Positions 11,638-37,759 of a stretch of DNA of 64,000 nucleotides are shown one piece after another. The position numbers and the translations under genes are program-made. The notes below the pieces were generated by a model, which saw nothing but the letters and a program-made list of their open reading frames with translations, searched no databases and was not told the origin of the DNA. This DNA is from Flectonema sp. DT1601. Taxonomy: Eukaryota. Numbering within the stretch: position 1 is the stretch's first letter; every line of letters begins with the position of its first letter. The stretch is taken from contig OZ025797.1 of assembly GCA_964019425.1 (NCBI GenBank), positions 372,001 to 436,000 on the forward strand, given 5' to 3'.

Positions 11638-14600
11638 ATGAAGAAGTCTGCTGGTAGGCTAGCACCCTTGTACCCAACTAAACAAATCTCACAAGATGGT
11701 GTAGAACTATTTCGTTCTTATGACTTTAGTGAAGATCGAATCAAGAGATCAAATCGAGTTGATTCTCGACCACGTCTTGCGATTGAATTAGAAAACTTCA
11801 TCGACACCGAAATGAGAAAGTTAGGAGTTCATAATTGGAGAGAACCACCAACAGTAAAACTAGTAACACCAGAGAGATTATCAGTCTTTGAGACCGCATT
11901 GCGACTCCTTGGTCTTCACTTCACTCCCTACACAGAACTGTTTGATAGTATTATAAGGGAGTACAAGACTTACACAGAACTTCACTGCAGTGGTACTAAG
12001 AAATTACAACTTACAATGAAGTACCTTGACCAAACATACGCTAGAAGTGTTGAGGCAATTCAACACGCATCCGAAGTAACTTCACAGCAATACCAACGAG
12101 CGACTGAAGAAGCAAAACAAAATGAAGAAAAACACAAACAAGAAGCGGAAACTCTGAGTGAAGATGTACAATTATGGAAAACCAAATCCAGAGAGAACCT
12201 AAACAGAGCTTTGTTCCTCCAAACCGTTGTGGATGAGCAGAAAGAAGAACTTCAGCGAGAGCGGCAACACTCATTAAATTTAGAAACAACCGTCAGAGAA
12301 CACAATATCAAACGTACGGAACTCGGTGAGCTTCAACAGGCCTTTGAATCAAAAAGATATTTACTGGCATTGGAAAGAGAGAAACGAGAATCAGCAGAAC
12401 AGCTGGCTGACGAACTAGAGTTGCAGCTGTCACAAGCTGGTAGCAGTATTAAGAAACTCCAGAGAGTCTCTAAAAAAGCAACTGAAAAGCTTCGAGTTAC
12501 TAACTCTGAAAACACCCACCTCTCCACACGTCTTAAGGATGCAGCCCATGAACTCTTACAGTGTCAGTCAGGTGATCCAGTAGTTAGTGGTTCAGGTATG
12601 GATTATTTATCTTTTCAATTTAAGACTCAAATGAATAAGTACAGCGTCGTCTGATGTTGTATAAATTATGTTTTGTTTCCATCGGATGGCCTTAGGTCAT
12701 CAGAATATAAATATTATCTCTGATGCGTCCTTCTTTCATCGTCTCCATTTTTTCATTTTCTTTTAACATTATTACGCTTTTTATTTCTTTCTTTTTATAC
12801 GACTTTCTACACTTTCTTTCTTTCTTTCTTCCTCCTAATGATGTGAGTAAATGATTAGTTGACCCCAAAAGGGTGTTTATTTATTTAAATTGGAGGTAAA
12901 CTGCCATGCCATGGTCCTTGTTACTACATTAGATGAATCTACACAGCGACCTTGCCAATAAATAAATAAAACCTTGCTGCTTTCTGTACTTTATTGATTT
13001 CGCAACCTAATATTGGTAAGAATCAGTGGGTACGTTTCACAGGAAAAGCAATTATGAGAGACAACCTGAGGAGGTTAGTATCGGAGGCTATGAACCTCCT
13101 GAAGATGGTGGGAGATGATGGGATCCCCGAGTATGAGAAAGAGAAAAGAGTAGCGAATCTCCTGATGGAGGTTATCCAGTTCGTGACGGGGTCGGAAGGT
13201 GGGAACCCTGAGATGAAAAGAAGAAGACCGGACACTCCCGAAGTGGGTGGTGGGACGGATGCGACCGCGACGGCAACCGAAGCGACGGCCCCAACCGCAG
13301 GCAGCAATCAACCGACAACAGAGGCGTCTACAGCTTCTAATCAACAGACAACATCGGCACCTAAACAATCAACCTTTTCGTTTCCGCTGCCTGTACCATC
13401 ATCAACATCGACTAAACAAACCACAAAGGGGAATGCTAAAGCAAGCTACCCGGAATGGCATGTACACGGCGCGTGGGCGGGCACTGTGTCTACAATCAAC
13501 TACGACGTAGCAGCGAATGCTACCAACAATCTCGCATCGGGTCTTGTTTTAGTACGCTCTAAACAGGACTGGGAAGCTCTCCGTCAGACAAAGAAGAGTG
13601 GTCGATGGGCTGCAATCAGCAAAGTACCGCTAACCAAAAGCACGGTGCCTGTCGCCATACCGGTGATCAAAAAGGGTGGTGTCTGCGAAATCAGACGAGT
13701 CTTCTACACGCATATCTGTGGTGAAGATTTTTCCAAAGCCACATCCGAAATTCAACATCCGACACCCGACCCCGTCTTGTTTGTTCAGGATTGGGGCAAA
13801 TCAAGTGAAAAAGATCTAACGATCAAAACAAAGGAACTGCTAAAAAAGAAAAAGATTAATGCAGCCCCTTTCAGTTACAAACGAAATGATTCACATTCCT
13901 CAATGGCTATTAGAATTCCCAGAAACCAAGTACACAAGATTCTGGAGTTTAACAATAACGACCCGGAGACCGACAAACCTAAGAATGTATTTGTCAGAAA
14001 CCCGAGCTGGTCAAATGGAAGCGATGTCTGGCCAACTCTTCAATTCAATAACGATCTTGGATTCTTGGCAGCAAAGTCCAAGACATCAATACTGGAAGGT
14101 TTCGAAGGTAAATTCTACCTGTGTAAGTTCAAAACCTGTTATGGACTCCGAGTTCATCCCGACTGCAACACTGAAGTGCGTATTAAGTTAAGCGCGTCAC
14201 TCAAACCTGCACTGCCTTCCGGTGACAGGTACATTATAAAATCAATGGCGATACGGAAATTCTCAACAGCGCAGATCAGCGACTTTATGAAGTCCTCTCA
14301 CAACTGGGAGCACACAGTGGTCGCATCGTTTAACAAAGGTGGAAGCACTACGATTGTGGCGATTTCAAACACGCAGCCTCCCAACTTCGTGAGCATAGGC
14401 ACCAATGAGTACCTTGTGATAAACAAGGAAGTTAAGAAAAGTGACAGAAAACCGCTAGGCCCAACCTACAACCCAGGCGACGCGGCTCAAAAACTGACAG
14501 GAACCCTGAAGAGACAGAAGACAGCTCCTCAACCACAACAACCAACTCAGCTACCACATCAGACGGCAGCAGCACCGACACCAGCGCCAGCACCCACACC

Positions 14601-17600
14601 AGCATCAGCTCCACCACCCACTGAATCTGCTGTTAAACAAGAAGGTGATAAGAACGGCGATGTTGAAATGGAAGATGATGACTCGGATTTTGACCTCAAC
14701 TGACTAGATGAAGATGACGATGATTTAAATCCGACCAACTCACTCACAGAAAAGAATACGGCTCGTGAACTGCTGCTTCAGGCAGGCGATGTCGAACGCA
14801 ACCCTGGCCCTGACGACTCCCTCATATCACTACTAAGCTGGAACTGTCGATCGATGGGGAACAAAGGTGCCTACATACACAAGCTGCTCAATGCCTATGC
14901 GCCTGACGTACTGTGCCTGCAAGAAACTTGGACAAAAGATGTAGTCTCACACACGGATTATTTTACCTATCGGAATGATAGGGCAACACGGGGTGGTGGG
15001 GTTATTACTATGGTGAAGAAATGCCACACTCAGCAGCGTTCTGATATCGTACTTCCGCCTCACTTAAATGATGTTGAAGTTGTAAAGGTCAACATAGGTG
15101 GAAAGATTGACATCTTAAATATTTATGCTCCCCCGGGATGCAAGATCAGAAAGTCAGATCTTCCAGTCTCAACGAAAGCAATCGTCGCGGGTGACTTTAA
15201 TGCCCATCATCCGGTGTGGTCATCAAAATCGACGCCAGCAGGTTCTACTCTACATGAATGGGCAGCACACAATGATCTACTGGTAGCCAACAAGATGGGG
15301 TCAATCACAAGGCCTTTTCCTAATATCCCGGGGGGCGGTACCTCGCCGGACGTAGTATTTTTTCAAAACTCGATGATTCTGGAAGAATTCTCTGTAATTA
15401 GAGAAGATAATAAACATGGATCTGATCACCGACCTCTCTACACCGTACTGGATCCCATGTGTCAACTTACACGTGCCACGATAGGTTCTAAGAAACGTGT
15501 GGTGTGGGACTTCAAGTCTACGGACTGGAACTGCTTTGGAAATATGCTCGATAAGAGAATTAGAAAATCGAAACTCTCCAACGATGCAACTGCGAATGCT
15601 AAGCTCTTTAACAACATACTGCATGAAGTGGCGGCTAAATTCATTCGTCGACGTGTCCTTTTCAAAGGGAAACGGAGACGAAAGTGGAAGACGTCAACAC
15701 CTGATTCTACCAAATCGAAGGGTGTCCACCTACGTGATCAACTTGACAAGGGTAACAACTTTGCCTTCGCGTTTAAGAAGATCAAAGAACTGCAACAAGA
15801 TGCTGGTAAAGATATCAGTGTCAACAACATCTCCGACTGCGACCTACCATCAGCATTCTTGGACCTGTTTGTCTCGAAATCGGAAATATTATCGCTAGAG
15901 GCCCCCGCACTCTCAGAAGGTGATAATGAAATAGATATTTGCTGTGATTTCACAATGGCTGAAATTAAAGCTGCGATTAAGAACCTGAAGACCCGCAAGG
16001 CTGCAGGACCTGATGGAGTTCACAATGAGATGATCAAAAACTTCACTCCGGCAACAGTGGAATACCTCCTGAGAATTATTAACACTTCCTGGAAGACTTC
16101 AAAAGTACCGTACCAATGGAAACAGGGACTAATCAAGCCTATGTTCAAGGCTGGAAAACCTCGAAATGAACTGAAGAGTTTCAGACCCATTACGCTCACA
16201 TCGGTTGTTGGGAAACTTGCGGAGAGGCTCGTGTATGACCGACTCATGCACTGGCTCACTAAACATTCGTCACTCAGCCCACTACAGGCTGGATTCAGAA
16301 GGGGGAGAAATACCTGCGAACAGATCACCGTTTTGGTAGATGCCGTCGTAAGGATGCACATGAAGAGAAAGAGATCGGTGTTCTTATCGTTTGATTTTAC
16401 TGCTGCGTTTGACAGGATCAACCATAAGATACTTTTATTAAAATTGGTAAAGATGGGTGTTCCGAATGTTATTATCAGATGGATCACAGACTTTCTTACA
16501 AACAGGAAGGTTAGAGTTGAAGCGAATGGTTATCTTAGTGAATTCCGTACTCTGGCTAAGGGGGTTCCACAGGGATCGATCCTGGGTCCTCTTCTTTATC
16601 TTATCTACGTTGATGACCTCTGCAAGATTTTGGAACTGGAGAAAGAAACAACGACGTCTGCTCTGTATGCGGATGATACAGCATGTGTAGTATCTGGACA
16701 TAACATGGAAGAAGCTCTTTCAAATGCTCAAATAATACTTGATAAAGTGGATCAATGGTGTTCTGACAACGACATGGCCCTGTCGGTCTCAAAGACCTGT
16801 GCTCTTAAGATGAAAGTCCGTACGAAGGATACGATTCTCAACGACACCTGCAATCGCGAATTACTATTTTCCAGATCTGTTGTGGAAAACGTTATCAAAA
16901 TGGACTATAGTGACATTGAAAAGAGTATCAACTTAAACTCTTCTAGACCCATGCTTCAAAGCGGCGAAACTATTCTCGAGGTTGATGGAACTCCGATCAA
17001 AACGCAAGACGAACTTGACAACGTGATGTTGCGGAATATTGTTCTCGAAAACAACGTGATGGTGGTGAAAGCCAGATTTAAAACCGCATTTCTGTTGCCA
17101 ATCGTGGACTCAGTGAAATACCTCGGAGTTCACATCGACGACAGACTCACTTTCCACAAACAGGTGGCTAAGATTCATGAAGAACTGAAAAAGGGAATAT
17201 CTCTGCTTCAATGCCTTCAACCGTATGATCTTGACTACAAAACGCTAAATATGGTCAAGAACCTTTACGTAACTGCGAGAATCTCTTATGCGCTCGATAG
17301 CTTTGGTTGGTTGATAAGCAACAGCGTTGATAGTATTGATTTCGAACTGAGGAAGGTTGCCAGGCTGGTTACTGGATGCAGCAGGTGCACACCGAGAGAA
17401 CTTCTACTGTGGGAAGCGGACATGCTTCCCTTTAAACGTCAGATCGAAAAGCAAACCAAGATAGCGTACTACAGGTATAAAGCCATGACTTGGATACCTA
17501 GTACCAACAGACTCGCCTCAACCCAAAGCTACTGGGCTGGCCTCCTTCCTGGCATTGACAGCCAGCGTGAAAGCCAGTGCCTTGTACAGCCTGACTCGAT

Positions 17601-20600
17601 GGAACCCTGGGTATCTCCGACAAACCTTAGGATTAGCAACGGCTGCGGATTTCCGAAGTCCGCGAACCCTGCGGTGGACAAAGAAAAATTCATGTCGTAC
17701 ATTGGAACGTTACCTCCTGTCGACATGTTAATCAACTGCGATGGCTCCTACTCTGCTTCCGGCGCGGCCGGAGCGGCTCATATTGCCAAGTCACGTAGCG
17801 GCCTTCGATCTGCTTACGCGTCTAGGCTCTATCAAGCTGACTGCAGCTACAGGGCTGAACAACATGCTCTGAAGAACGCGGCTAGACATCTGAGAACAGT
17901 GTTTAGCAAAGATCCTTCAATGAGATCTGTAAGGCTATTCACGGACTCAAAATCCCTTCTGGATGAACTGCTGGGTGGAAGGTGCAGACAGAGGAATACT
18001 GAGTCCCTCAAGATACTAGAATACCTGCGCATGTGTGAAATGAAAGTGCATTTGCAATTCATCCCCTCGCACATTGGAATCGAGTTTCACGATGAAGTTG
18101 ACGCGCTTGCAAAGGAAGCAGCGCACAACAAGAACATCCGACCTGTGCTAGTCAAAGGCACTTACTTCTCGCGATCATCACATGTTAAGCGCTGCATCAA
18201 AAAGGATCTGCTTAACGTGAGTGGCTACACCTGCTACAAACACCTCATCGGAGGCCGTTCCGTTAAATACCCTCCTGGGATGGAAAGAGCCGACGAGATA
18301 CGGATAGCGAACTTCCGGACAGGATGTCACCCGCTAATTCAGAACTGGCGCAAAAATATCGACTGCCCATTTTGTGGCGAACCGTCCTCACAGGTTCACC
18401 TGCTGCAGGGATGTCAATCTCCCAAACTCGACTCGGCCAGGTTCAAAATCCTGGGCTTCTCAACACTGACCGGCAAGTGGGATCGCGATCGGGAACTTAT
18501 TATTGCCAACGAAATTCCTAACCTTGAAGCCCTCTTCACTTTGGCGTGGCTTCCATCACTCGCGTTGATCATAAGGTGGATGGAACAGACATCTAACCTT
18601 AGACTTTGGAAATAAAGTAGGTGACATGTAGTCGCCAATATCAATTTGTTATTATTTTAGTATTTCCATCATTATCAATCATCTCCTGGTTGGGTGACTG
18701 CACATCACCTTCGGTGTTGTCGCAGTGTCTCATCCAACACTCCTGTCTCCTTCTTCTCCTATTCTCCTTTAAATTTCTCTTGAGGGCAGGCCTTCGGGCT
18801 GTTCAAGTGGTCTTTGACCACCGCTCTAGTTATATGCTCGATTCTTTGTTTTCCTTATCGATGGTAGGAATGGTAACCGAATTAGCTTCATGTGTCCAAT
18901 TTCAAGGACGCGTGACCATTTATTTTTTTCCGTTGCCGCTCTTCTTACGTCCTCAGGCGGAGCCTACCTATGTTTCCCGTGTTTTCCAATTTGTCAGACT
19001 TAAACCAAAAGAAAGTATAAAAGAAAGACAAAACATAGAAGTGAAAAGAACAAAAACAAAGAGTTTGGTAGCACAGACGAGTGTAACCAAAAAAAAAAAA
19101 AAACCTTGCCCATTCAAGACCATTTATTTTTTCCGTTGCCGCTCTTCTTACGTCCTCAGGCGGAGCCTACCTATGTTTCCCGTGTTTTCCAATTTGTCAG
19201 ACTTAAGTTAAAAAGAAAGTATTAAAGAAAGACAAAACATAGAAGTGAAAAGAACAAAAACAAAGAGTTTGGTAGCACAGACGAGTGTAACCAAAAAAAA
19301 AAAAAAAAAAAAAACCTTGCCCATTTTATAGCGCCCGTGGTGTAATGGTAGCAGCAGCAGTCAAATAAACAGGTCTGTAGCCAGGCCTTGTATGCGTGTC
19401 CAGGTTCGATTCCTGGCGGGTGCGATTTTACCACCCTTAAAAACATTATTTATTTATCTATTTTATGCCATAAACAAATTATTTCTGTGCACATTTCATC
19501 ACTCGCGGTAGTTTTTTTTTTTTTTTTTTTGACCTCTAATTTGCTGAGCAATAGTTGTTATATTCCTTGGTGATCCATCTATCGATCCCGACACTGTTCC
19601 AGAAACATGAATGAACAAGTCAATTCTGTTATAATTCTCTTCGATGGATCTGCATAAGAAGTTGTATTCGACACAGCACTCAATGATATGATAGTCGAAT
19701 CAGAAAAGAAACCTTCAGTGATAATGGTGTTGTGTATTTCAAACTAACTGACGACGTAATAAAACTATCTTGTGAAGTATTGTTGTCATCAGAAAGTGGT
19801 GATGCTCTTCACTTATACGATGCAAGAGATAGCAGTGATTATTTAACAGTTAACGTTTACGTTTCGAATAGGAATAGCGAACCTCTATCTTAGCCAATAT
19901 GGGATGTTCAACTATCATCAGTTTATAATAATAATAATATTGTTTGAAATCATCAACCAGTTCATCTCAGGGGGATTTGGGAACTCCAATTTCGCGTTTC
20001 TTTGAAAAAGTAGAGTGAAATGTGCACAGTCGTAATTTTAATTTATGGCATTAAATAAAATTAAACGGTTAAGTTGACATACTTTGTAATAATTATCATC
20101 TCATACAGTGATGCCCCCCCCCCCCCCCCCCCCCCCCCACTCGACGATACTTTCTCTGGTAGTTTATTTAAAGCATGCGATTTTGTGTGGACAGAATCCA
20201 GTTATAATGATTCATGTCTAATTTGTTGCGTGTTAACCCCCCTTGATTTATTTATCCAAATCCCCCCCCACTCGACGATATAATAGAACTGATCAGAGAT
20301 GAGTTTATCAACTTAAGCATCCCTAATTGATACTCATGTGTATTTTTTTTTCTTTTTTAATTAGCAAACCAAAAACAATAACCAAAAAAAAAAACTAAAT
20401 CAGGAACAAGTAAAACACTAACTCCTCGACCAAATTGGAAATGTGATGTACTAATTGATGTTTTATTAAAGGAAGTTGAAGAACCTGCCGGTAGAGAGTA
20501 TCAACAGTCGACATCTGCTAAAAAAGACAATCAACTACAAGTACCTGATGCTAATAATCCTACAGAAAAAGAGGGTATGGCAATGCATGCTGCTGATGAA

Positions 20601-22010
20601 ACAATTAATCAACAAGATAATAATAATAATAATAATGACAACGATGATGATGATGATGATGATGTCAATAAAAACATGGTTAGACTTAGGCTTCCATCAG
20701 GCGCCGGAGATGTTGAGTATTTTAATGAAAAGAGAAATCAAATAATATCGGAGCTGTCGGATAAATCATCTTCTGAGAATGTTAACTTTCTTATTCAGCT
20801 GATATTAAAACAACGAAAACTAATTGTGGACATTGATTATCAACTTTCTAAAACATATAAAATACAAGAATTCCTTAGATACGATTCCCACAGACCTGCT
20901 CAGGAACGCAAACAAACCGGAGGTCGTTTTTTCGTAGGTCTCGGAAACGGTCCAACCGTTGAAAAGTATTTAAAATTTTCCGGAAAAATCTCAAATAAAC
21001 AAATGTCAAAAAAAGCAACGGATACCTGGCTTAGGAATTTCTGGTCATCAAAACAATTGGCTGATAAAAGAATGCAAGAGAAGAATAGAGTTAGAGTGGA
21101 ATTTCATGAGTTTTTATATGGTTACCTCGTTGCAGCAGCAGGACTTCAGGCAGTCGTTTGTGAAACTGCTTATAATGTTTTAGATTCTTGTAAGAGATAC
21201 CGACATAATCCAGAGTGTGCTCTCTTCCTACAAATCCAGACGAATAAACTTAGTGATGAAGCTTTCTACTACACAAAAGACCTTCTCGCTAAACTTGAAC
21301 ACTGGTTTGTGAAACTTGAGACTACAGAGTTAGCTTCAAAGTCAGAGAAAACAGTAGAAGCGAGACTCTTGAAATCTCAAACTACTGGATTTGTCTCAAA
21401 AAAATACGTCTTTCAAGAATTGCCATCAATATTTCCCTGCAAGACTAGCGATGATTTGTTGAAAATAAAATTGTGTTTCCAGGAGGAGAATCCGGGAAAA
21501 CAGATTTGCTATTCCAAACTATTCGACAGCTCTGGTCAATCAATGTGTATCTCAATAATTCGTGAACAGGTAATAAGAGAGTTACAAGATTATATTAAAG
21601 ATATCCAAGAAGCACTAATAGACGCTTCTGATGACGGCTGTAGTATCGTAGCATTTAGGGCTCAGATGGTATTACAAGAAGTTGATCCGTGTAAGTCATC
21701 AATTGGTGTTGAGAAAATGATGTCTTCTGGTCTCAATGTAACTGAAGATGATTTATCAAAAGATGATATCATGACGGGTTTCGTTAATATTTCTTCATTC
21801 TGTACATCTTTACTAAAAGGGTTTACAACAAGAGCAACAAACCCTGAAGATGTTCAAGGTATGTTATCAAAACGAGGACAGACTAGAACACTCGGACAGG
21901 CTGGAAGACAACGTCTTCGATCAATGCGATCAATGACGTCTCTTCTTCATGAAAAAAGAAACGATTCTCTTCCTTCATTTCCTGACCAACAACTGACTCC
22001 ACGAGGTTAG
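11638..22010 (+). CDS. TSNAXIP1: Translin-associated factor X-interacting protein 1-like, join(11638..12595,20404..22010)
   Basis: Exon 1 has a TSNAXIP1_N-like segment (RLSVFETALRLLGLHFTPYTELFDSIIREY) and a coiled coil. Donor CAG|GTATG at 12596 and acceptor CTAAATCAG| at 20403 join in phase 1 into an open frame (GTSKTLTPRPNW...) continuous with the 20577 ORF, which has FFVGLGNGPTVEKYLKFSGKISNKQMSK. Additional small exons inside the intron cannot be excluded. Confidence 0.75.
12981..12996 (+). other. Relict 3' portion of the euglenozoan spliced leader at the retroelement 5' end
   Basis: TTTCTGTACTTTATTG equals the last 16 nt of the diplonemid/Leishmania-type SL exon (...CAGTTTCTGTACTTTATTG, recalled from memory). 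It lies 3 nt inside the TSD. Confidence 0.85.
13054..14703 (+). CDS. Retrotransposon ORF1 (549 aa, no recognisable CCHC knuckle)
   Basis: First ATG at 13054 follows TTTCACAG. Low-complexity Thr/Ala/Pro flanks and an acidic end. Stop is TGA followed by CTAG. Confidence 0.8.
   Translation: MRDNLRRLVSEAMNLLKMVGDDGIPEYEKEKRVANLLMEVIQFVTGSEGGNPEMKRRRPDTPEVGGGTDATATATEATAPTAGSNQPTTEASTASNQQTTSAPKQSTFSFPLPVPSSTSTKQTTKGNAKASYPEWHVHGAWAGTVSTINYDVAANATNNLASGLVLVRSKQDWEALRQTKKSGRWAAISKVPLTKSTVPVAIPVIKKGGVCEIRRVFYTHICGEDFSKATSEIQHPTPDPVLFVQDWGKSSEKDLTIKTKELLKKKKINAAPFSYKRNDSHSSMAIRIPRNQVHKILEFNNNDPETDKPKNVFVRNPSWSNGSDVWPTLQFNNDLGFLAAKSKTSILEGFEGKFYLCKFKTCYGLRVHPDCNTEVRIKLSASLKPALPSGDRYIIKSMAIRKFSTAQISDFMKSSHNWEHTVVASFNKGGSTTIVAISNTQPPNFVSIGTNEYLVINKEVKKSDRKPLGPTYNPGDAAQKLTGTLKRQKTAPQPQQPTQLPHQTAAAPTPAPAPTPASAPPPTESAVKQEGDKNGDVEMEDDDSDFDLN
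14761..14811 (+). other. 2A-like StopGo (ribosome-skipping) peptide ARELLLQAGDVERNPG|P
   Basis: Exact D(V/I)ExNPGP consensus at 14788-14811 with the typical upstream LLLxAG. In frame with both ORF1 and ORF2. Confidence 0.92.
14809..18615 (+). CDS. Retrotransposon ORF2 polyprotein: APE endonuclease, reverse transcriptase, RNase H, C-terminal Zn knuckle; predicted to start at the 2A Pro
   Basis: APE: SWNCRS (upstream of Met 14854), LCLQET, NIYAPP, GDFNAHH, SPD, SDH. RT: KAAGPDG, FRPITLTS, QAGFR, DFTAAFD, GVPQGSILGP, YADD, KYLGV. RNase H: CDGS, AEQHAL, TDSKS, IPSHIG..DEVDALAK. Zn knuckle: CPFC..H...C. Confidence 0.95.
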   Translation, partial: PDDSLISLLSWNCRSMGNKGAYIHKLLNAYAPDVLCLQETWTKDVVSHTDYFTYRNDRATRGGGVITMVKKCHTQQRSDIVLPPHLNDVEVVKVNIGGKIDILNIYAPPGCKIRKSDLPVSTKAIVAGDFNAHHPVWSSKSTPAGSTLHEWAAHNDLLVANKMGSITRPFPNIPGGGTSPDVVFFQNSMILEEFSVIREDNKHGSDHRPLYTVLDPMCQLTRATIGSKKRVVWDFKSTDWNCFGNMLDKRIRKSKLSNDATANAKLFNNILHEVAAKFIRRRVLFKGKRRRKWKTSTPDSTKSKGVHLRDQLDKGNNFAFAFKKIKELQQDAGKDISVNNISDCDLPSAFLDLFVSKSEILSLEAPALSEGDNEIDICCDFTMAEIKAAIKNLKTRKAAGPDGVHNEMIKNFTPATVEYLLRIINTSWKTSKVPYQWKQGLIKPMFKAGKPRNELKSFRPITLTSVVGKLAERLVYDRLMHWLTKHSSLSPLQAGFRRGRNTCEQITVLVDAVVRMHMKRKRSVFLSFDFTAAFDRINHKILLLKLVKMGVPNVIIRWITDFLTNRKVRVEANGYLSEFRTLAKGVPQGSILGPLLYLIYVDDLCKILELEKETTTSALYADDTACVVSGHNMEEALSNAQIILDKVDQWCSDNDMALSVSKTCALKMKVRTKDTILNDTCNRELLFSRSVVENVIKMDYSDIEKSINLNSSRPMLQSGETILEVDGTPIKTQDELDNVMLRNIVLENNVMVVKARFKTAFLLPIVDSVKYLGVHIDDRLTFHKQVAKIHEELKKGISLLQCLQPYDLDYKTLNMVKNLYVTARISYALDSFGWLISNSVDSIDFELRKVARLVTGCSRCTPRELLLWEADMLPFKRQIEKQTKIAYYRYKAMTWIPSTNRLASTQSYWAGLLPGIDSQRESQCLVQPDSMEPWVSPTNLRISNGCGFPKSANPAVDKEKFMSYIGTLPPVDMLINCDGSYSASGAAGAAHIAKSRSGLRSAYASRLYQADCSYRAEQHALKNAARHLRTVFSKDPSMRSVRLFTDSKSLLDELLGGRCRQRNTESLKILEYLRMCEMKVHLQFIPSHIGIEFHDEVDALAKEAAHNKNIRPVLVKGTYFSRSSHVKRCIKKDLLNVSGYTCYKHLIGGRSVKYPPGMERADEIRIANFRTGCHPLIQNWRKNIDCPFCGEPSSQVHLLQGCQSPKLDSARFKILGFSTLTGKWDRDRELIIANEIPNLEALFTLAWLPSLALIIRWMEQTSNLRLWK
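19115..19313 (+). mobile_element. Second, 5'-truncated copy of the retrotransposon 3' end with its own poly(A)
   Basis: Repeats 18914-19103 with a few differences (TTAAACCAAAAG vs TTAAGTTAAAAG; GTATAAAAG vs GTATTAAAG) and a longer poly(A). Flanked by ACCTTGCCCATT at 19103-19114 and 19314-19325. Confidence 0.8.
19331..19424 (+). tRNA. Atypical tRNA-like gene (94 nt; anticodon not assignable)
   Basis: 7-bp acceptor stem GCGCCCG/CGGGTGC, A box TGGTGTAATGG, perfect T arm CCAGG-TTCGATT-CCTGG (B box) and TTTT just downstream. The central part does not form a canonical anticodon arm. Confidence 0.6.
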
Positions 22011-25337: not shown

Positions 25338-25877
25338 TGATCTTTTATTTATTTATTTTAAATGTTAAAAAGACTGGTTGTAATGATATGAAACTCCAGT
25401 CAACTCAAGAAAGAGTAACAAAAAAAAAAACTATGAAAAAGAAAAACTTGTTATCTTGTCTTCTGTGTAACAAAAGATTTCTACCCAATTAGTGATTGTA
25501 AGATTCTTGTTAGTTTTGCTTTTTATTTTTTATAACTGAAAACGAACAAAATATGAATAAACTGCTGACATCTTTTTTTTAATTTCTTTTTTTTATTGTT
25601 GTTCATGCAGCTGTCACACTGATTGGTGTTCCCTACCCTTAGCCTATTTGTATCGTTTCCTGCGATTGCTGTTTTTATTGTTCAACAAGTAAACCTATTT
25701 GTAATACTGAATGGAAATGGATTAATAAGATTAACAAGTATTTATTTCTTCAATCAAGGAAACAACAAAACAACAAAGAAGAAATTGTAGCATGCGACTT
25801 GTAGTTATTTCATATCAATTTTATTTTCTTTTGTTGTGTAGGTGATTACAACTCCGAAAAGTAATTAAGAAAATAAA

Positions 25878-27596
25878 ATGCGACCTCTGCTTTGGTTATT
25901 AGTATTCGCATCACTGATCTCTTCCTCAAATGCAGTTCAGATTGAGACTAGAGTTTTTACTGCGGAGTTTTCAGCGAGTGATGAAAACTTTAATATGTAT
26001 GTTGAGCTTCAGAACAGTGGGGACGTAATCTTTGCGGGATTGACTGGCCAAGTCTTCGGAACACGCGATTCAACTGTGACAGTGAGCACTGACCCATCAC
26101 TGCTTTCACCGTCGATAAACCCGCTTCAAATAAGTAGAATTCTTATTCGGCCTACTCTCGAGGGTCGCTCAGAAGACGGTGACGGACTAACTATTCGTAG
26201 TACAATAGAACTATTAACACCAGGTGTGAGACAAGGTAGAATTCCATTCACATGTTATTACCACAATCAGGGAGTACTGAATCCTGCAGTACTTCCAACT
26301 GTTATCATTGACTACTTCCATTCAGCAACTGATTCATTTGCTGAATGTTTTTCTCCATACACAATAACGGAAACTGCATCATTAACTGTAACGAAATCCT
26401 TAACTGTTCCACTTGATTATGCCCTTCCAGAGTTTGCTGTTGACGAAGGCTCAGCACTCGAAGGGTCGCAGTCGGAACCTGCGGTCGCTTCCTTCGCTGA
26501 TGGCGGAGTTGTTGTTTGTTGGACTTCTCAAAATCATGAGTTAATGAGAAGATATGAATTTAATATATTTTGCTTAATGTTTGATGTGACAGGAGCAGAG
26601 CAAGGATCTAAATTTCAAATTAACTCCAACACTTTGGGAACACAGCAGTCTCCTTCAGTAGCTGTCCTTCAAGGGAATTCTATTGTTGTTGTATGGAACA
26701 GTGACCACCTGTCGGGTCACAACGTTATTTCTCGTCAGTTTGACAACGGAGTTGCGAATGCTGAAGGAGAAGTGATTCACAGTGCCCATCTCGCTTCAGG
26801 AAAGAAGACATTGCCTGATGTCGCCAGCATCCCTTCAACTAATTATTTTGTTATCTGTTGGCAATCTTTTGGCAGTGACGGTTCATATTTCGGAGTTTAT
26901 GCTGTTCGTCATTCTGTAGGTGAGAGTAGCGTTCCGTTTCTGGTAAACACCGCGACGCAGTGGGATCAGACGGATGCAAAGGTTGCTTGCTTCACTGACG
27001 GTGGGTATGTAATTACTTGGGGGAGTTATACTACTGGCACTGCTAGTGACATATTCATGAAGAGATACAACGCATTGGATGTTGCTCAAACTCCTTCGGA
27101 TGAAAAGGTAAACTCGGATGACGCGAATACCGAACGTGCTCCAGCGATTGCGAGATTCTCTGACAACACATTCATGATTGTGTGGGTTAGGATTACTACT
27201 ACTGATTCGACATTATGGGCAGCAACATTTGATGCAACAGGTTCTCAGGTTGTAACTGAATTCCGTGTTGACACCGATGTCGGTCTTCGAGTTCGCAACT
27301 GTGACATCGTAACTTTGAATGATGACACAGTTCTTATTACTTGGGGAGCATCAAACGCTGCTGGTACTAGTTTCGGAACATATGCTCGTCGCTTCACTCG
27401 AATTGTTAGTGTTTTGCCTGCGGAATACCAGAATCAGTTTCTTATTAATGAAAACACTGCAGGAGAGAAACTAAAACCCAAAGTTGAGAAGTTTGGTCCT
27501 TGGGGATTCTTCATCACGTGGCAAACTACTGATCCGAATTCTGAAAGTGACGTTACTGGAAAATGGTACCCCGAATATAAACCAATTCTTTTTTAG
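25878..27596 (+). CDS. Secreted repeat-domain protein, paralog 1 (572 aa)
   Basis: Signal peptide MRPLLWLLVFASLISSSNA. C-terminal repeats of type F.VN...Q..P.VA...G..VV.W. Confidence 0.85.
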   Translation: MRPLLWLLVFASLISSSNAVQIETRVFTAEFSASDENFNMYVELQNSGDVIFAGLTGQVFGTRDSTVTVSTDPSLLSPSINPLQISRILIRPTLEGRSEDGDGLTIRSTIELLTPGVRQGRIPFTCYYHNQGVLNPAVLPTVIIDYFHSATDSFAECFSPYTITETASLTVTKSLTVPLDYALPEFAVDEGSALEGSQSEPAVASFADGGVVVCWTSQNHELMRRYEFNIFCLMFDVTGAEQGSKFQINSNTLGTQQSPSVAVLQGNSIVVVWNSDHLSGHNVISRQFDNGVANAEGEVIHSAHLASGKKTLPDVASIPSTNYFVICWQSFGSDGSYFGVYAVRHSVGESSVPFLVNTATQWDQTDAKVACFTDGGYVITWGSYTTGTASDIFMKRYNALDVAQTPSDEKVNSDDANTERAPAIARFSDNTFMIVWVRITTTDSTLWAATFDATGSQVVTEFRVDTDVGLRVRNCDIVTLNDDTVLITWGASNAAGTSFGTYARRFTRIVSVLPAEYQNQFLINENTAGEKLKPKVEKFGPWGFFITWQTTDPNSESDVTGKWYPEYKPILF

Positions 27597-28651
27597 TTTC
27601 TTTTTTCAATTTATTTCTTATTGATTTTCAAGAACATAATTGAAACGAGGAGTCATTCATTCAGTTATCTCAAGGCGAATAGTGTTTTTATAATGGTGGT
27701 TAAGATTTTTTCTTTTTTTTGAATTCTTTTTTTCCCCCCAACTGTATAAAGTCGACCACCTTTTATGCTATTGAGTAAACTAGCTGGATTTGCCTCTTGA
27801 CGGATATCCTAGAGAACTGTACTTTAAGGTCTGTTTCAGTTCTACTTGCGCTGCTTCCCATGTTCCCCTTACCTCTGCTTAGTATTATTTTTTGTTGCTG
27901 TTGTTGTTGTTGTTGTTGTTGTTGTTTTTCTGGGTGATGCTTTCACTTGATTAATCTCTCTTTTTATATTGTAAGAAAACTTGTCTTTTGTTTGCAATGT
28001 AAAAAAAAAAAAAACGAGAAATAATAAAACGAGTGTGTCGCTTAAGCATCTTCAATTTGCGATGCTTGTTATTAAAGTTGAGAGTAAGTGTAAATTTGTT
28101 TTCGTTGTTGTTTTCGCTTCGGCTGATACTACATTGCTGAGAAAACTACTATTTTATTTTGTGGTATAACCCCTACCAACAATCGATTTTTTTTTTTCTT
28201 TGCGAAAAGTAAAGAATCCTTTAGACAAATACAAATATCTTTTTTTTCGATATTAATTTTGTTTTATAAATACCTAAAATTGTTACTGTTTTTACATAAT
28301 CGAAATATCAACTTCCCCCTCTGCCCTTGTGACAGTACTTTTATTGTTTTCCGTATTCTTCCCAGATAGATCTTTTCATATCTTATCAAATTACCCCCCA
28401 GTCCAATTAATATAATTGTTAAGGAATTATTTATTTATTGACAAACTATGATGAAATCAACTCTCTGCTGTAATCCATTGTGCCCTGGTTTTGGTTTCTC
28501 AAGGCTCGCGGTCGATTCCGTACTGCACTGAATGACAAGACATTCTTTTACGATATTTGCAGAGTGTTTAACTTTAGTCAGCTGCGTCATAAATTACTAA
28601 TTGTTTATATTTATTAACTTTTCATGCAATGCAACCTCAAATAAAGTATCA

Positions 28652-28962
28652 GTTCACCATGGGTTCACCATGGGTTCACTATGGGTTCACCATGGGTTCA
28701 CCATGGGTTCACTATGGGTTCACCATGGGTTCACCATGGGTTCACCATGGGTTCACCATGGGTTCACCATGGGTTCACCATGGGTTCACCATGGGTTCAC
28801 CATGGGTTCACTATGGGTTCACCATGGGTTCACCATGGGTTCACCATGGGTTCACCATGGGTTCACCATGGGTTCACTATGGGTTCACCATGGGTTCACC
28901 ATGGGTTCACCATGGGTTCACCATGGGTTCACCATGGGTTCACCATGGGTTCACCATGGGTT
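28652..28962. repeat. 11-bp minisatellite (CCATGGGTTCA) x ~28
   Basis: Tandem units read directly; four CTATGGGTTCA variants. Confidence 0.97.
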
Positions 28963-30573
28963 AACTGAGTTACCTCAACAGTGTTGGTGGGAGTATGGAT
29001 TACTCTCGAAAAAGGTGTTGTTGAAATCTTTTTCTTTCTTTTCTCGTCCCTTATAATTCTTTGGCAGTGAAAGCTTCACGTCACAAGATAGAGCTTAATG
29101 TAAGTGTTGCTGCAGTTGGTAGTTTCTGTTTTAGTGTCGTACGGCTGGTGCGGCTTTTCCGTTTCCTTTCCCTTCAGTTTCACGGACTGGTGCGATATGT
29201 CTCGATAAAAGTTTAGTTCTGTTCTTCTTTAACCTTTGTACTGTGGGGGTTCCCCCACTTGTGCGTGCTACGAACTTTGTTTAATATGATCCAATTCGTG
29301 CAGTTGTATTTTACAAATTCAAACATTCAACCCTACGTGTATGTTACGTTCCGGTAAATGATATCTTTTTTCGCCACAAGGCGTGGGACGTTTAACCTGT
29401 AGCACGTGGCCTTTCCGAATCCCCTTTCTCGACATTTATGGGATTTTATCGATACCAACTGTTGGTATTTACAATCTAGTAACCAGGTTTGGCCGAACCT
29501 ATTTTAGTTTTAGCCAGTTCGGGTTCCTTAATATTGATTACAATATCAAGTTGCTCTTCCTTTTTATTTTCTAATTTTTTTTTTATTCGGTCTTGCAGAC
29601 GTGATGTGGTGTTCTTCACTGAGTGGTCATCACGAACTTTTCAAAAAAAAAAAAAAAAAAGAACTTTCTACCAGTTTTTTTTGAGAAAGAAGAAATTAGT
29701 TTGGATTGCTTTCACGCAAAGAGACTAACCCAGTCGCTCCACCAGGTCCTCGGGTATTCCTTGTTGCTGCACGTCGAGACAACGATCGAGAGAAATTATT
29801 TCGCATTCGTGTATTTTAGAATTCTGAGAGTCTAAGAACAGAGTTTCCATTTTATATTACGAAAAAAAAAAAAAAAAAAACAGCAACCAGCAAACAAAAA
29901 ACAAAAATGATTAAATCATATGAGTCTCACCGAAAGTCAGACTAAACAATTAGTCTAGACTCATCGTTTAGTTTGCCTTTAATCCAACTGAGAGGTTTAC
30001 TCTCCATCATGTATTTTGTTAATAAATAAAATTAAAAAACAAACCAAGCAAGCAAGAAATCGAAAAGTCAGTATTAACTACTGCAATCGAAGATTCTCCG
30101 AGAGTAAGTCTTTTATTAGGACCATCTCTTTGTGATTACTTTCTACTAATCAAAAAAGAAAAAGTGATATGAATTATCCGTTTATTGAGATAAGAGCAGG
30201 CGATACACTCTCCTGTCGAATTCAAGTCTCTCTGGACCCATGATAATATGATTGGGATTATGTGTGTGATAGCGTCCTCAAAGTAATGAGCCTGCAATCA
30301 ATTCTTTTTAATGAGAACATAAATTATTAAATTCCAACTCAAATATTTCTGAAAACACAAATGTTTATTTTATATTAATTTTATTGTTGGAATTAAAGGG
30401 TTTTCTCATGAAGTTTTTATTATTATTTCATTCGTGTTGTCGTTCTCTCTTTTATTGTTCTTTTCTAGACGATAGCGAGCTTCACTCGCAATTTATTTTA
30501 TAATGTTTTCCCACAACCCTTTTCTGTTTTGTTTATATTTCTGTCAGAGTTGTTGTCAGCCCAATTTAATTAA

Positions 30574-32311
30574 CCCATTACGGACGGGGGTAAAACCCGG
30601 TTTTTTGACTTTTTTTGAAAAAAGAGCTAACGGGGAAAAGGGGTAGGGGGGCTCGGAAAGGTGATGTGACAAAGTGAACCGCCATTGCCTGCCCGTTAAA
30701 AATACACACACATTCACCACCTAAAGGGTGAACAGAACAAATGAAAACACCACCAAAGACAACAATAAGCTCAGTTCTTATGACTCCCTGCGCCTCTTCA
30801 ATTTTGATGTTGTTGTGAGTGCAGGGGTCTTCCCCTTCGTACATTCTTCCCGGATAGCACCTCCCGACACAGAGGTGGTGGTATGGGACGCAAATGTTCT
30901 CCCCTTTGTAAGATTTAAGTGGTATTTGCCAAAACAGGGTGCAGGACACATAAAAACCTTACACCCCTGGCATCCATAAGTAGTCCTCACTCGAGTATTG
31001 TGATACTTACATTGTTTAGCAGCGCCAAATATTGATGGATAGTGCTCAGTGGTGCTGAACATGTGTGAAAAGTGCGAATCCGAGTCAATAGTAGATGTAG
31101 TATTGGTTGTCTTGTCTCTCGACGTCCCGTCACTGACGAGTTGCATAGCGAGCTCCTCTACATACCGTATGTAGGTACCAGTATCCTTACCGCATTTCTT
31201 TTGAAGGGTAAACGTGTTGAACATTGAAACTTTCAGCTAGTAGTCGAAAACCTTTAGATGCCATCGTTTAGTTTGAAGGTTTCTGTTCGCCCTTCCCTTC
31301 ACGCTATCCATCAGGTTAACACCTCCCATCGTTTTGGTGTACCTGTCTACTTGCACGGTAGTTTGATCGGCACTTTTTCTTTTTTATTTCTCTTCCTAAT
31401 CCAGCGATATACATCGACACAGTGCTCACGTAAGGGAAGAGTACTGAAAAGATGCACATCCTTTGAGTCTCTCCACTTTATATGGTGGATGCCGTGCTTG
31501 ACTGAAGGTAAGAAGCAGAAAGATTCTTCGGTCTTTCTTTCACTTCCGATTTGCTTAGTCGTCCCGGTCCAGGGGTAGCCTTCGGTTTTGTAACATCAAC
31601 AGAACTCCCTTTCTGTTCCGTCAGGCTGTTCCAACACAGTGGAACCCTTTCGCTAACATCAAAACAAGAAATGCGTATGACGAATTGAAATTGTCAAACG
31701 TCACCCAATGCCCTTTATTATTATGGGGTTTAACAAGACTATGAACATAAGAAGCAGGAATGTGTTTGTTAGCAGTGTGGAAATTACGGAGAAAGCATTT
31801 CAGTTCACCAACTTCTAGTGACTTCATGGACGTCTCTTTGTCAATCGGGTAGGCAAGAGTGTGTCGAAATATCATTTTAAGCACATGATCAGTGAAAATG
31901 AGTTGGATACCTTCAATTCGTTCATTTCATTAAAGTCGCTCACACTCTGGGTAGGTCCTTTCCGTTTTTCCCTGGGGATTCTCTTGGTTTTGCCCCCCCA
32001 CTTTGATACCTTTGCTGTGTTGCTGTCAGATGACGACTCCGATACAGAATCCATCATCATCAGACTTTCATAGGACGCCGAACTTGTATCAATTTCAACA
32101 GGCACACGAAACTTCTTGTTAGGTGGTAAAATTTTGATTATTAGTTTTGAATTTCATGAATAAAAACACAGCGAACCACGCCATCCCACCCAAGATTCGT
32201 CGCGAAACGGCCTCGATTACACCCCCCCTGGGTAGCGTTAGCCGGGTTTTCCCCTTAGCGAAAATAAAATTTCAAAATAACCACTGTAGTGGACCCCCCG
32301 TCCTTAATGGG
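30574..32311 (-). mobile_element. Decayed piggyBac transposon (1738 bp)
   Basis: TIRs CCCATTACGGACGGGGGT and ACCCCCCGTCCTTAATGGG; TTAA TSDs at 30570-30573 and 32312-32315. Broken minus-strand transposase with VTFDNFNSS..L..KGFHCVGT and Cys-rich CKYH..RTTYGCQGCKVFMC..PCFGKYH. Confidence 0.92.
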
Positions 32312-33715: not shown

Positions 33716-34087
33716 GTCATACTTCTCACAGAACACTTTGACGATGTATCACTTCTTAGCATTGCGGCTGGGTTGCTGACATCTTTTTTTAATTTCTTTT
33801 TTTTTATTGTTGTTCATGCAGCTGTCACACTGATTGGTGTTCTCTACCCTTAGCCTATTTGTATCGTTTCCTGCGATTGCTGTTTTTATTGTTCAACAAG
33901 TAAACCTATTTGTAATACTGAATGGAAATGGATTAATAAGATTAACAAGTATTTATTTCTTCAATCAAGAAAACAACAAAACAACAAAGAAGAAATTGTA
34001 GCATGCGACTTGTAGTTATTTCATATCAATTTTATTTTATTTTGTTGTGTAGTTGATTACAACTCCGAAAATAATTAAGAAAATAAA

Positions 34088-36703: not shown

Positions 36704-36804
36704 TTTGAAACTCACGAAGAATTTTATTATTATTATTTTACTTTTAATCCAACTGGGAGGTTTACTCTCCGACATGTATTTTGTTAATAAATAAATAAAA
36801 TTCA

Positions 36805-37360
36805 AAACAAACAAACAAACAAACAAACAAACAAACAAACAAACAAACAAACAAACAAACAAACAAACAAACAAACAAACAAACAAACAAACAAACAAAC
36901 AAACAAACAAACAAACAAACAAACAAACAAACAAACAAACAAACAAACAAACAAACAAACAAACAAACAAACAAACAAACAAACAAACAAACAAACAAAC
37001 AAACAAACAAACAAACAAACAAACAAACAAACAAACAAACAAACAAACAAACAAACAAACAAACAAACAAACAAACAAACAAACAAACAAACAAACAAAC
37101 AAACAAACAAACAAACAAACAAACAAACAAACAAACAAACAAACAAACAAACAAACAAACAAACAAACAAACAAACAAACAAACAAACAAACAAACAAAC
37201 AAACAAACAAACAAACAAACAAACAAACAAACAAACAAACAAACAAACAAACAAACAAACAAACAAACAAACAAACAAACAAACAAACAAACAAACAAAC
37301 AAACAAACAAACAAACAAACAAACAAACAAACAAACAAACAAACAAACAAACAAACAAAC
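36805..37360. repeat. Perfect (AAAC)n microsatellite, ~139 units
   Basis: Uninterrupted tetranucleotide array of 556 bp. Confidence 0.98.
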
Positions 37361-37759
37361 AAGAAATCGAAAAGTCAGTATTAACTACTGCAATCGAAGA
37401 TTCTCCGAGAGTAAGTCTTTTATTAGGACCATCTCTTTGTGATTACTTTCTACTAATCAAAAAAAGAAAAAGTGATATGAATGATCCGTTTATTGAGATA
37501 AGAGCAGGCGATACACTCTCCTGTCGGATTCAAGTCTCTCTGGACCCATGATAATATGATTGGGATTATGTGTGCGATAGCGTCCTCAAAGTAATGAACC
37601 TGCAATCAATTCTTTTTAATGAGAACACAAATTATTAAATTCCAACTCAAATATTTCTGAAAACACAAATGTTTATTTTATATTAATTTTATTGTTGGAA
37701 TTAAAGGGTTTTCTCATGAAGTTTTTATTATTATTCGTTCTGTCCGGTTCCGTATGTTA

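What the first reader, a model, noticed from the sequence alone, without database searches (positions are those of the whole stretch)
16798..17115. PDZ-like insertion inside the reverse transcriptase domain
Seen: 106 aa separate the SVSKT motif from KYLGV, including MLQSGETILEVDGTPIKTQDELDNVM (16951-17028), with the frame intact. Known: this spacer is usually only about 20-35 aa in LINE RTs, and L..GD.IL.V.G..(V/I).T..EL...(L/M) is the characteristic C-terminal half of PDZ domains. Inference: the RT has captured a small protein-interaction module, which could help tether the RNP to a host factor (for example at Pol III genes).
Basis: partly seen in the sequence, partly recalled or inferred. 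Interest (0 to 1): 0.7.

Follow-up and report, generated by a model that had tools for sequence, protein, structure and literature searches.

The report
PDZ-like domain inside retrotransposon reverse transcriptase
A family of jumping genes, likely from a marine diplonemid protist, carries an extra segment of about 70 amino acids inside its reverse transcriptase that is predicted to fold as a stripped-down PDZ domain without the usual peptide-binding groove, and that may help the element dock at its insertion sites.

Summary
Observation confirmed. The element is an intact Ingi-like LINE (2A-like peptide, APE, RT, RNase H, CCHC). Between RT motifs 6 and 7 about 70 extra residues (16870-17082) replace the turn of a conserved hairpin; both native strands stay in place. 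The insert marks a whole clade: 17 sequences, from the host assembly and from transcript sets including the diplonemid Flectonema neradi, group together on RT alone (support 95/96), and none of 127 measured outside RTs has it. A family profile retrieves PDZ domains almost exclusively, and AlphaFold models of two subgroups with unrelated insert sequences both match PDZ folds (50/50 and 49/50 top rows, but Z only 3.8-7.8). The GLGF loop and, in this subgroup, strands betaB/betaC are missing, so canonical C-terminal peptide binding is unlikely. Sequence signal is weak, covers 30-45 residues and leans on a hairpin resembling the RT's own. Best reading: a PDZ domain captured once and reduced to a fast-evolving docking surface, in the interval where R2 carries its DNA-reading 6a loop. 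Function is untested; a repeatedly hit site 17 nt upstream of a tRNA-like gene hints at targeting. No report found in three literature searches.

The parts
16870..17082 (+). Inserted PDZ-like domain (ORF2 residues 723-793), replacing the 2-4 residue turn of the RT motif 6-7 hairpin; predicted order betaA (16882-16905), helix (16906-16926), betaD (16969-16983), betaE (16990-16995), alphaB (17005-17034), betaF (17056-17088)
   Evidence: PDZ element names assigned by me from the order of elements and the end-to-end structural alignments
16951..17028 (+). PDZ sequence signature (betaD-betaE-alphaB), the only part with clear sequence similarity to PDZ domains
16855..16869 (+). Native RT hairpin strand 1, left in place N-terminal of the insert
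   Evidence: best in-place score at K+13 to +19 in 7 relatives, native median K+16; assigned in the window by alignment
17083..17130 (+). Native RT hairpin strand 2 and motif 7 (KYLGV at 17116-17130)
16162..16824 (+). RT core, Pfam RVT_1 E 4e-34; YADD at 16666-16677, motif 6 SVSKT at 16783-16797
14704..18618 (+). ORF2: 2A-like peptide, APE endonuclease, RT with insert, thumb, RNase H, CCHC finger
14770..14811 (+). 2A-like (StopGo) motif in front of the APE domain
   Evidence: motif class from PMC3708506
14833..15438 (+). APE endonuclease (Exo_endo_phos, Exo_endo_phos_2)
17731..18123 (+). RNase H-like domain (DGS motif at its start; no Pfam hit in the window's own protein, PF00075 in relatives); end approximate
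18364..18414 (+). C-terminal CCHC-type zinc finger motif
13054..14703 (+). ORF1, 549 aa, no Pfam family; ends in TGA in frame with ORF2
12971..12977 (+). Left target-site duplication core ACCTTGC; element starts at about 12978
18619..19109 (+). 3' UTR, poly(A) tail and right target-site duplication (19103-19109)
19118..19320 (+). Second, 5'-truncated copy (about 200 nt of 3' UTR plus poly(A), 94% identical) with its own duplication ending in the same ACCTTGC site (19314-19320)
19331..19424 (+). tRNA-like gene with intact acceptor and T arms and an enlarged anticodon region, 17 nt downstream of the start of the duplicated site; identity unresolved
   Evidence: Rfam RF00005, 31.7 bits, gathering 29; not found by default ARAGORN; weak Leu(CAA) call only with relaxed thresholds

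Best explanation
The element's reverse transcriptase carries a roughly 70-residue insertion at the tip of the motif 6-7 hairpin that is predicted to be a reduced PDZ domain, likely captured once from a host gene by the ancestor of a diplonemid Ingi-like LINE clade, and that likely works as a non-canonical docking surface helping the ORF2 protein engage its target site rather than as a peptide-binding PDZ. Shown: the insertion, its position, its presence in the whole clade and absence outside. Predicted: the PDZ fold, whose adjacent N- and C-terminal strands (betaA/betaF) simply prolong the RT hairpin, so catalysis is undisturbed; loss of the GLGF loop and, in this subgroup, of betaB/betaC. Inferred: host origin and single capture (PDZ ancestry about 0.75). 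Hypothesis: the domain sits in the motif 6-7 interval that in R2 faces upstream target DNA, and contacts DNA or a DNA-bound host factor to bias insertion, for example to sites just upstream of tRNA genes (about 0.3); other partners (own RNA, ORF1p, a replication factor) share the rest.
For: Clade: the 16 insert-bearing RTs in a 40-row IQ-TREE tree built without the insert columns form one branch, 95/96; 17 of 183 in FastTree, 0.98; outside spacer median 73 versus 132-172. Sequence: Pfam PDZ_6 in 4 of 10 family members, best E 7e-4; PDB profile hits led by RseP, DegP/HtrA and LIMK2 PDZ domains, about 54 of 60 listed being PDZ proteins by name; of 204 hits among 1.84 billion proteins, 34 of the 35 non-self hits scanned first carry Pfam PDZ. 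A PDZ profile scores the 10 inserts 9.8-25.1 bits and 113 native spacers at most 10.8, third best 5.0. Structure: model pLDDT 81.7, 50 of 50 top VIA rows PDZ, Z 5.5-6.6, best Z 7.8, rmsd 2.1, 71 aligned (rhophilin-2 PDZ). The sister subgroup's 107-aa insert has no sequence similarity to PDZ or to ours, yet its model (pLDDT 82.0) starts with the same strand-helix, ends with the same helix-strand, and gives 49 of 50 PDZ rows. Retained in 48 of 49 spanning copies while diverging faster than the whole protein in 12 of 13 pairs. R2Bm uses an insertion between motifs 6 and 7 to read target DNA (PMC10499050; PMC12180492). ACCTTGC marks all four junctions of the locus, the last 17 nt before a tRNA-like gene.
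Against: All single-domain scores are below Pfam's curated cut-offs; best single-stretch score against any PDZ in the big search is 29 bits, the low E-values come from summing tandem PDZ repeats. Similarity covers only profile positions of about 21-71 and drops to 4 bits or less when 7 hairpin residues are masked. Foldseek gives no match at E 0.001 for either model, and none PDZ-like for the sister subgroup; VIA Z under 8 may reflect a common arrangement, and Z 3.8-5.0 for the sister subgroup is weak. Models rest on 10 and 7 sequences and on isolated fragments. 4 of 8 further hits scanned were not PDZ. In an R2 alignment the extra residues fall in the loop before the hairpin, not at its tip, so the insert is next to, not at, the 6a position; its direction in space was not modelled. 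This subgroup's inserts are not basic (net -5 to +4; sister subgroup +1 to +10). Targeting rests on one locus; three other copies start right after a poly(A) tail, which plain A-tract nicking would explain.
Confidence: 0.5

Rival explanations
1. Look-alike, not a PDZ descendant: the insert grew from a local duplication of the RT's own hairpin (xLxI-[DN]G-xxI) plus accreted sequence and only resembles the C-terminal half of a PDZ domain.
For: The insert's hairpin scores like a native RT hairpin (7-12 bits in 9 of 10 subgroup members) and MAFFT aligns native hairpins onto it; masking it removes the PDZ score; no GLGF; sub-threshold Pfam and Foldseek scores.
Against: 0 of 12 native spacers hit a PDZ family in Pfam if the single PDZ-matching member of that alignment is the window's own, as implies; the G[ED]xI, alphaB and betaF pattern lies outside the hairpin; the sister subgroup lacks the hairpin signature yet still models as PDZ-like.
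Confidence: 0.2
2. Tolerated relic: a PDZ fragment was captured once, folds stably at a permissive hairpin tip and is kept only because a clean deletion is rare; it has no binding function.
For: It is among the least conserved parts of ORF2 (mean identity 30% against 65% for the RT core and 49% for the linker); the binding groove is lost; the two subgroups share no detectable sequence.
Against: Kept in every family that spans the site although the RT cores of the two subgroups are only about 35-37% identical; both versions still fold confidently, and the subgroup lost a neat block of about 30 residues rather than decaying.
Confidence: 0.18
3. Canonical PDZ tether: the domain binds the C-terminal tail of a host protein in the betaB/alphaB groove and anchors the RNP to it.
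For: PDZ fold and alphaB are predicted; the sister subgroup's model keeps extra strands where betaB/betaC would lie; three members have LGF just before the insert.
Against: No X-Phi-G-Phi motif between betaA and betaD in any of 17 aligned inserts, a defining feature per PMC7138185; only about 20 residues, modelled as helix and coil, join betaA to betaD; the LGF is the native RT strand and has G in only 3 of 10.
Confidence: 0.08

Closest known systems
Ingi/L1Tc clade non-LTR retrotransposons (Tbingi, L1Tc, Ingi-1_AC)
   Same: 2A-like motif directly before APE, then RT and RNase H, poly(A) tail, short target-site duplication (features from PMC12278014 and PMC3708506 passages).
   Different: Has a separate 549-aa ORF1, which Ingi elements are reported to lack; has the motif 6-7 insert, absent from all outside RTs measured; no Rfam ribozyme hit at the 5' end. 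No named Ingi reference was in my trees.
R2 retrotransposon RT insertion '6a' (R2Bm, TaGu, PlaMe)
   Same: Lineage-specific insertion between RT motifs 6 and 7; in R2 it reads upstream target DNA and its deletion blocks nicking (PMC10499050; PMC12180492).
   Different: 6a is a short loop, described as unique to R2; ours is a folded domain of 65-95 aa, appears to sit at the tip of the following hairpin, and belongs to an APE-type element.
PDZ domains (canonical PSD-95/syntenin/NHERF/rhophilin type by fold; RseP and HtrA/DegP type by sequence)
   Same: betaD-betaE-alphaB-betaF sequence pattern and predicted betaA...betaF topology with adjacent termini.
   Different: No carboxylate-binding loop; helix after betaA; betaB/betaC absent in this subgroup; scores below family cut-offs. 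The atypical PDZ-like domain of synbindin is among the structural neighbours (row 19); that it too is an insert in another domain is recalled.
tRNA-gene-targeted non-LTR elements of dictyostelids (TRE5-A, NLTR-A, NLTR-B)
   Same: Insertion a short distance upstream of a tRNA gene (2-64 bp; PMC5911963 passages).
   Different: Those are L1-clade elements and TRE5-A uses ORF1-TFIIIB contacts in opposite orientation; here the element is co-oriented, specificity is seen at one locus only, and no partner is known.

Membership tests
PDZ domain | Score above a curated Pfam PDZ cut-off | tested here: not met
   Window 14.2-14.8 bits against cut-offs 23-27; best family member PDZ_6 E 7e-4
PDZ domain | betaD-betaE-alphaB-betaF sequence pattern | tested here: met
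   for this subgroup; not detectable in the sister subgroup
PDZ domain | PDZ-type fold | tested here: inconclusive
   Predicted models match PDZ in 50 of 50 and 49 of 50 top rows, best Z 7.8 (rmsd 2.1, 71 aligned) and 5.0 (rmsd 2.8, 70 aligned); all under 8, Foldseek E above 0.06
PDZ domain | X-Phi-G-Phi (GLGF) carboxylate-binding loop between betaA and betaB | tested here: not met
   absent in alignments A2 and A4; definition from PMC7138185
PDZ domain | betaB/alphaB peptide groove | tested here: not met
   no strand of 3 or more residues between residues 17 and 39 of the window's model; the sister subgroup has one long and one 2-residue strand there
PDZ domain | Binds C-terminal peptides | not testable with these tools
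   no candidate partner; no binding job run
Ingi/L1Tc clade LINE | APE, RT and RNase H in one ORF | tested here: met
Ingi/L1Tc clade LINE | 2A-like motif before APE | tested here: met
   14770-14811; activity not tested
Ingi/L1Tc clade LINE | Single ORF, no ORF1 | tested here: not met
   separate ORF1 ending in TGA; 8 of 13 ORF1 cluster members end at the same residue, the other 5 stop earlier
Ingi/L1Tc clade LINE | Pr77 / HDV-like ribozyme at the 5' end | tested here: inconclusive
   no Rfam hit in 12000-21000 other than tRNA; no Pr77 reference compared
Ingi/L1Tc clade LINE | RT phylogeny groups with named Ingi references | not tested
   trees held no named Ingi or L1Tc sequence; neighbours are RNase H-bearing elements, some with 2A
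tRNA-gene-targeted retrotransposon | Most copies at a fixed distance from Pol III genes | not testable with these tools
   no genome held; one locus fits

The most novel reading that the evidence does not exclude
A diplonemid LINE clade turned a captured host PDZ domain into a target-recognition module grafted into the RT palm, a domain-sized counterpart of the R2 6a loop, which docks ORF2p on the Pol III machinery or nearby DNA and directs repeated insertion about 17 nt upstream of tRNA genes; the hairpin tip would then be a natural, catalysis-neutral port for adding targeting domains to non-LTR RTs.
Probability: 0.2. Interest if true: 0.85.

Novelty: new variant of a known kind. Interest (0 to 1): 0.6.

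Why it matters
Extra domains in LINE ORF2 proteins are known (relatives fetched here carry OTU, UCH or PHD/C1 Pfam labels), but a folded domain inside the RT palm, next to the primer grip, kept across a whole clade, is unusual, and I found no report of a PDZ in a retrotransposon RT. The only described insertion in this interval, R2's 6a loop, reads target DNA and was called R2-specific. If the domain affects target choice it is a new route to site selection in APE-type LINEs; in any case it shows a position in non-LTR RTs that tolerates 65-95 residue domains, of use to those engineering retrotransposon gene writers. It is directly testable by deletion, since diplonemid genetic tools are listed in the literature (PMC7200600, search listing only).

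Tried and rejected
No whole genome is held, so copy number and flanks could not be surveyed. Single-sequence searches of the insert found nothing in PDB or the ESM Atlas (no hit at 0.9 or above). Profile-profile comparison of the two subgroups' inserts gave probability 1%: their homology rests on position, tree and predicted structure, not sequence. Foldseek against PDB for the sister model and against viral structures for the window's model gave nothing significant. One non-PDZ VIA row (coronavirus polymerase-complex chain 8g6r_B, Z 4.3) was not pursued. No HtrA/RseP-type PDZ appears among the top 50 VIA rows; this does not exclude them. Reversed and 20 column-shuffled profiles scored at most 1.4 and 9.5 bits on the PDZ hit set against 29.0, but that set was chosen by the true profile, so the control is circular and carries little weight. 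MAFFT's placement of the native hairpin on the PDZ signature was rejected as a misalignment because both native strands remain at their normal distances from motifs 6 and 7. No RNA holder was listed for the element; four of six listed runs were laid and gave only short pieces, with reads cut at the poly(A) tails, so no other flanks. Spacer counts mixed two DD motifs and were replaced. Three look-ups of earlier findings returned nothing. No complex prediction was run, for lack of a candidate partner; neither ORF1 (ends in N) nor ORF2 (ends in K) has a hydrophobic C-terminal PDZ ligand. The RT was not folded with the insert in context. Supplementary figure S7 of PMC10499050, which aligns the 6a loop, was not seen and bears on the positional comparison.

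Full report
The element. The window holds a full-length LINE from about 12978 to 19102: ORF1 (13054-14703, 549 aa, no Pfam family), ORF2 (14704-18618) with a 2A-like motif, APE, RT, an RNase H-like domain and a CCHC finger, a 3' UTR and poly(A). No genome is held. The host is likely a diplonemid: the nearest named relatives are Flectonema neradi transcripts at 53-65% RT identity; the other close relatives are unnamed ENA proteins that share contig lengths and so appear to come from one assembly. By architecture the element is Ingi-like, but it has an ORF1, and no named Ingi was in my trees.

The observation. 106 residues separate SVSKT from KYLGV, in frame, as stated. From the catalytic DD to YLG, 127 outside RTs measure 66-97 residues (median 73), this element 148 (143 of 183 sequences measurable). 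A position profile from 113 native spacers shows that native hairpin strand 2 is still directly before KYLG (8 or more of 10 subgroup members near the native mean score) and strand 1 still 13-19 residues after the motif 6 lysine in seven relatives. So the insertion replaces the two-residue turn of that hairpin and is about 70 aa (16870-17082), not 106. It is present at full length in 48 of 49 cluster members spanning the site (85 examined), and an independent contig crosses its C-terminal junction unchanged.

Distribution. Two searches for RT relatives gave two subgroups with a long spacer: group 1 (window, P0003-P0008, P0079-P0081; 132-148) and group 2 (P0099, P0398, P0399, P0096, P0401, P0402; 170-172; P0400 breaks off inside the insert). 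Both have members in the host assembly and in Flectonema (P0400-P0402 are EukProt entries whose species I did not look up). On RT columns that exclude the insert, the two groups form one branch with no insert-free member: 17 of 183 rows, FastTree 0.98; 16 of 40 chosen rows, IQ-TREE 95/96 (midpoint root). The group 1 profile found no other retroelement among the 150 listed hits from 1.84 billion representatives. One ancient acquisition is the simplest reading.

Is it a PDZ? Alone, the window's insert gives PDZ_2 and PDZ_Tricorn at E 0.05 and nothing in PDB or the Atlas. With ten group 1 sequences, 4 of 10 match PDZ_6 (best E 7e-4); the PDB profile search lists RseP, DegP/HtrA, LIMK2 and other PDZ proteins in about 54 of 60 rows (judged by name); of 204 hits at E 0.001 in the large library, 34 of the first 35 non-self proteins scanned and 4 of 8 further ones picked for lacking the simple motif carry Pfam PDZ domains. 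These E-values are summed over tandem repeats; the best single stretch is 29 bits, and matches cover only betaD-betaE-alphaB-betaF and part of the preceding segment. A PDZ profile from 22 of those domains scores group 1 inserts at 9.8-25.1 bits and native spacers at most 10.8, but masking seven hairpin residues brings the inserts to 4 bits or less: the native RT hairpin and the PDZ betaD-betaE hairpin look alike, which is the main caution. The group 1 model (pLDDT 81.7, 10 sequences) reads strand, helix, strand, short strand, helix, strand; all 50 top VIA rows are PDZ chains aligned end to end (Z 5.5-6.6; best 7.8, rmsd 2.1, 71 residues), Foldseek rows are PDZ but at E above 0.06. The most telling test is group 2: no similarity to PDZ or to group 1 by sequence, yet its model (pLDDT 82.0, 7 sequences) has the same first strand and helix, the same last helix and strand, about 30 more residues in the middle, and 49 of 50 top VIA rows are PDZ, though at Z 3.8-5.0 and with no Foldseek support. 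I put PDZ ancestry at about 0.75.

What kind of PDZ. The X-Phi-G-Phi loop that binds a ligand's C-terminus (PMC7138185, passages) is absent from all 17 aligned inserts; a helix follows betaA instead. In group 1 only about 20 residues join betaA to betaD, so betaB and betaC, half of the peptide groove, are gone. It should not be filed as a functional PDZ. The fold's adjacent first and last strands explain why it can sit in a hairpin tip without harming the RT (inference).

Function. The insert is kept everywhere yet evolves fast: below whole-protein identity in 12 of 13 pairwise comparisons (not independent), often among the lowest windows, 69% against 98% for the RT core between two sister subfamilies (this could also be a recombined segment); 30% mean identity against 65% for the RT. 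That fits an exposed surface with a constrained core. In R2Bm an insertion between motifs 6 and 7 reads upstream target DNA, its deletion blocks nicking, and it was judged unique to R2 (PMC10499050, parts 1-2 of 5 read; confirmed for vertebrate R2 in PMC12180492, passages). An alignment to an R2 RT puts the R2 extra residues in the loop before the hairpin, so our domain is a neighbour of that position, not its equivalent, and I did not model its orientation. Group 2 inserts are basic (+1 to +10), group 1 inserts are not (-5 to +4). L1 ORF2p uses a different region (wrist) to bind PCNA (PMC7617806, passages), showing that host-factor docking on ORF2p is plausible in general.

The site. ACCTTGC occurs at 12949, 12971, 19103 and 19314 (4 of 6 matches in the window), bracketing a 14-nt AATA-type piece, the full-length element and a 200-nt 5'-truncated copy; the last copy begins 17 nt before a tRNA-like gene. 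Two, possibly three, insertions thus used one nick. That is what tRNA-targeted elements do (PMC5911963, passages), but three other copies begin directly after a poly(A) tail (P0468, P0071, P0040), which A-tract nicking or tandem arrays also explain. One locus cannot decide.

Novelty. Three searches combining PDZ with retrotransposon or RT terms (listings and abstract starts only) showed no such report; the Diplonema papillatum genome paper (PMC10161547, passages) leaves its transposons unclassified, and the trypanosomatid mobilome survey (PMC12278014, passages) has no mention of PDZ. Subscription papers, Repbase and supplements were not searchable. Verdict: a real, clade-wide, previously undescribed PDZ-like domain inside a LINE RT; fold predicted, origin likely, function open. 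New variant of a known kind, interest 0.6.

Noticed in passing
window 14701-14811: ORF1 ends in TGA followed by CTAG, in frame with ORF2, with no in-frame Met before the 2A-like motif or the start of the APE domain; UGA CUAG is a known readthrough context (bioRxiv 10.1101/2021.04.18.440353, one passage). Sister subfamilies P0009 and P0004 do have a Met there. Possible readthrough plus StopGo expression of ORF2; two independent contigs show the same junction.
   Followed up: partly
window 12949-12977, 19103-19109, 19314-19320: The same 7-mer at four junctions: two or three successive insertions at one nick, 17 nt upstream of a tRNA-like gene.
   Followed up: partly
window 19331-19424: tRNA-like gene above the Rfam gathering score with 33 nt in the anticodon region, missed by default ARAGORN; isotype and possible intron unresolved.
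   Followed up: partly
proteins P0468, P0071, P0040: Other copies begin right after a poly(A) tail; in P0071 a different family follows the 3' end of the window's family, suggesting nested or tandem arrays.
   Followed up: partly
proteins P0404, P0139, P0438: Related RT-bearing ORFs carry precomputed Pfam labels for OTU (PF02338), UCH (PF00443) and C1/PHD domains, i.e. other captured host domains; family names for these accessions are recalled.
   Followed up: no
window 13054-14703: ORF1 has no Pfam family and an acidic C-terminal tail; its fold is unknown.
   Followed up: no
window 25869-27596, 34079-35941, 39449-41269: Three near-identical secreted-type ORFs with a shared C-terminal beta-rich repeat region and variable Ser/Thr-rich repeats.
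   Followed up: no
window 36790-37380 and 28600-29050: A long AAAC-type simple repeat and a 30-nt tandem repeat giving repetitive pseudo-ORFs.
   Followed up: no
window 30778-31236: Short Cys/His-rich ORF resembling the C-terminal cysteine-rich domain of piggyBac transposases (resemblance recalled, not tested).
   Followed up: no
proteins P0258, P0259: Large multi-PDZ proteins with degenerate PDZ repeats among the insert's hits; candidates for the kind of host donor, taxonomy not determined.
   Followed up: no
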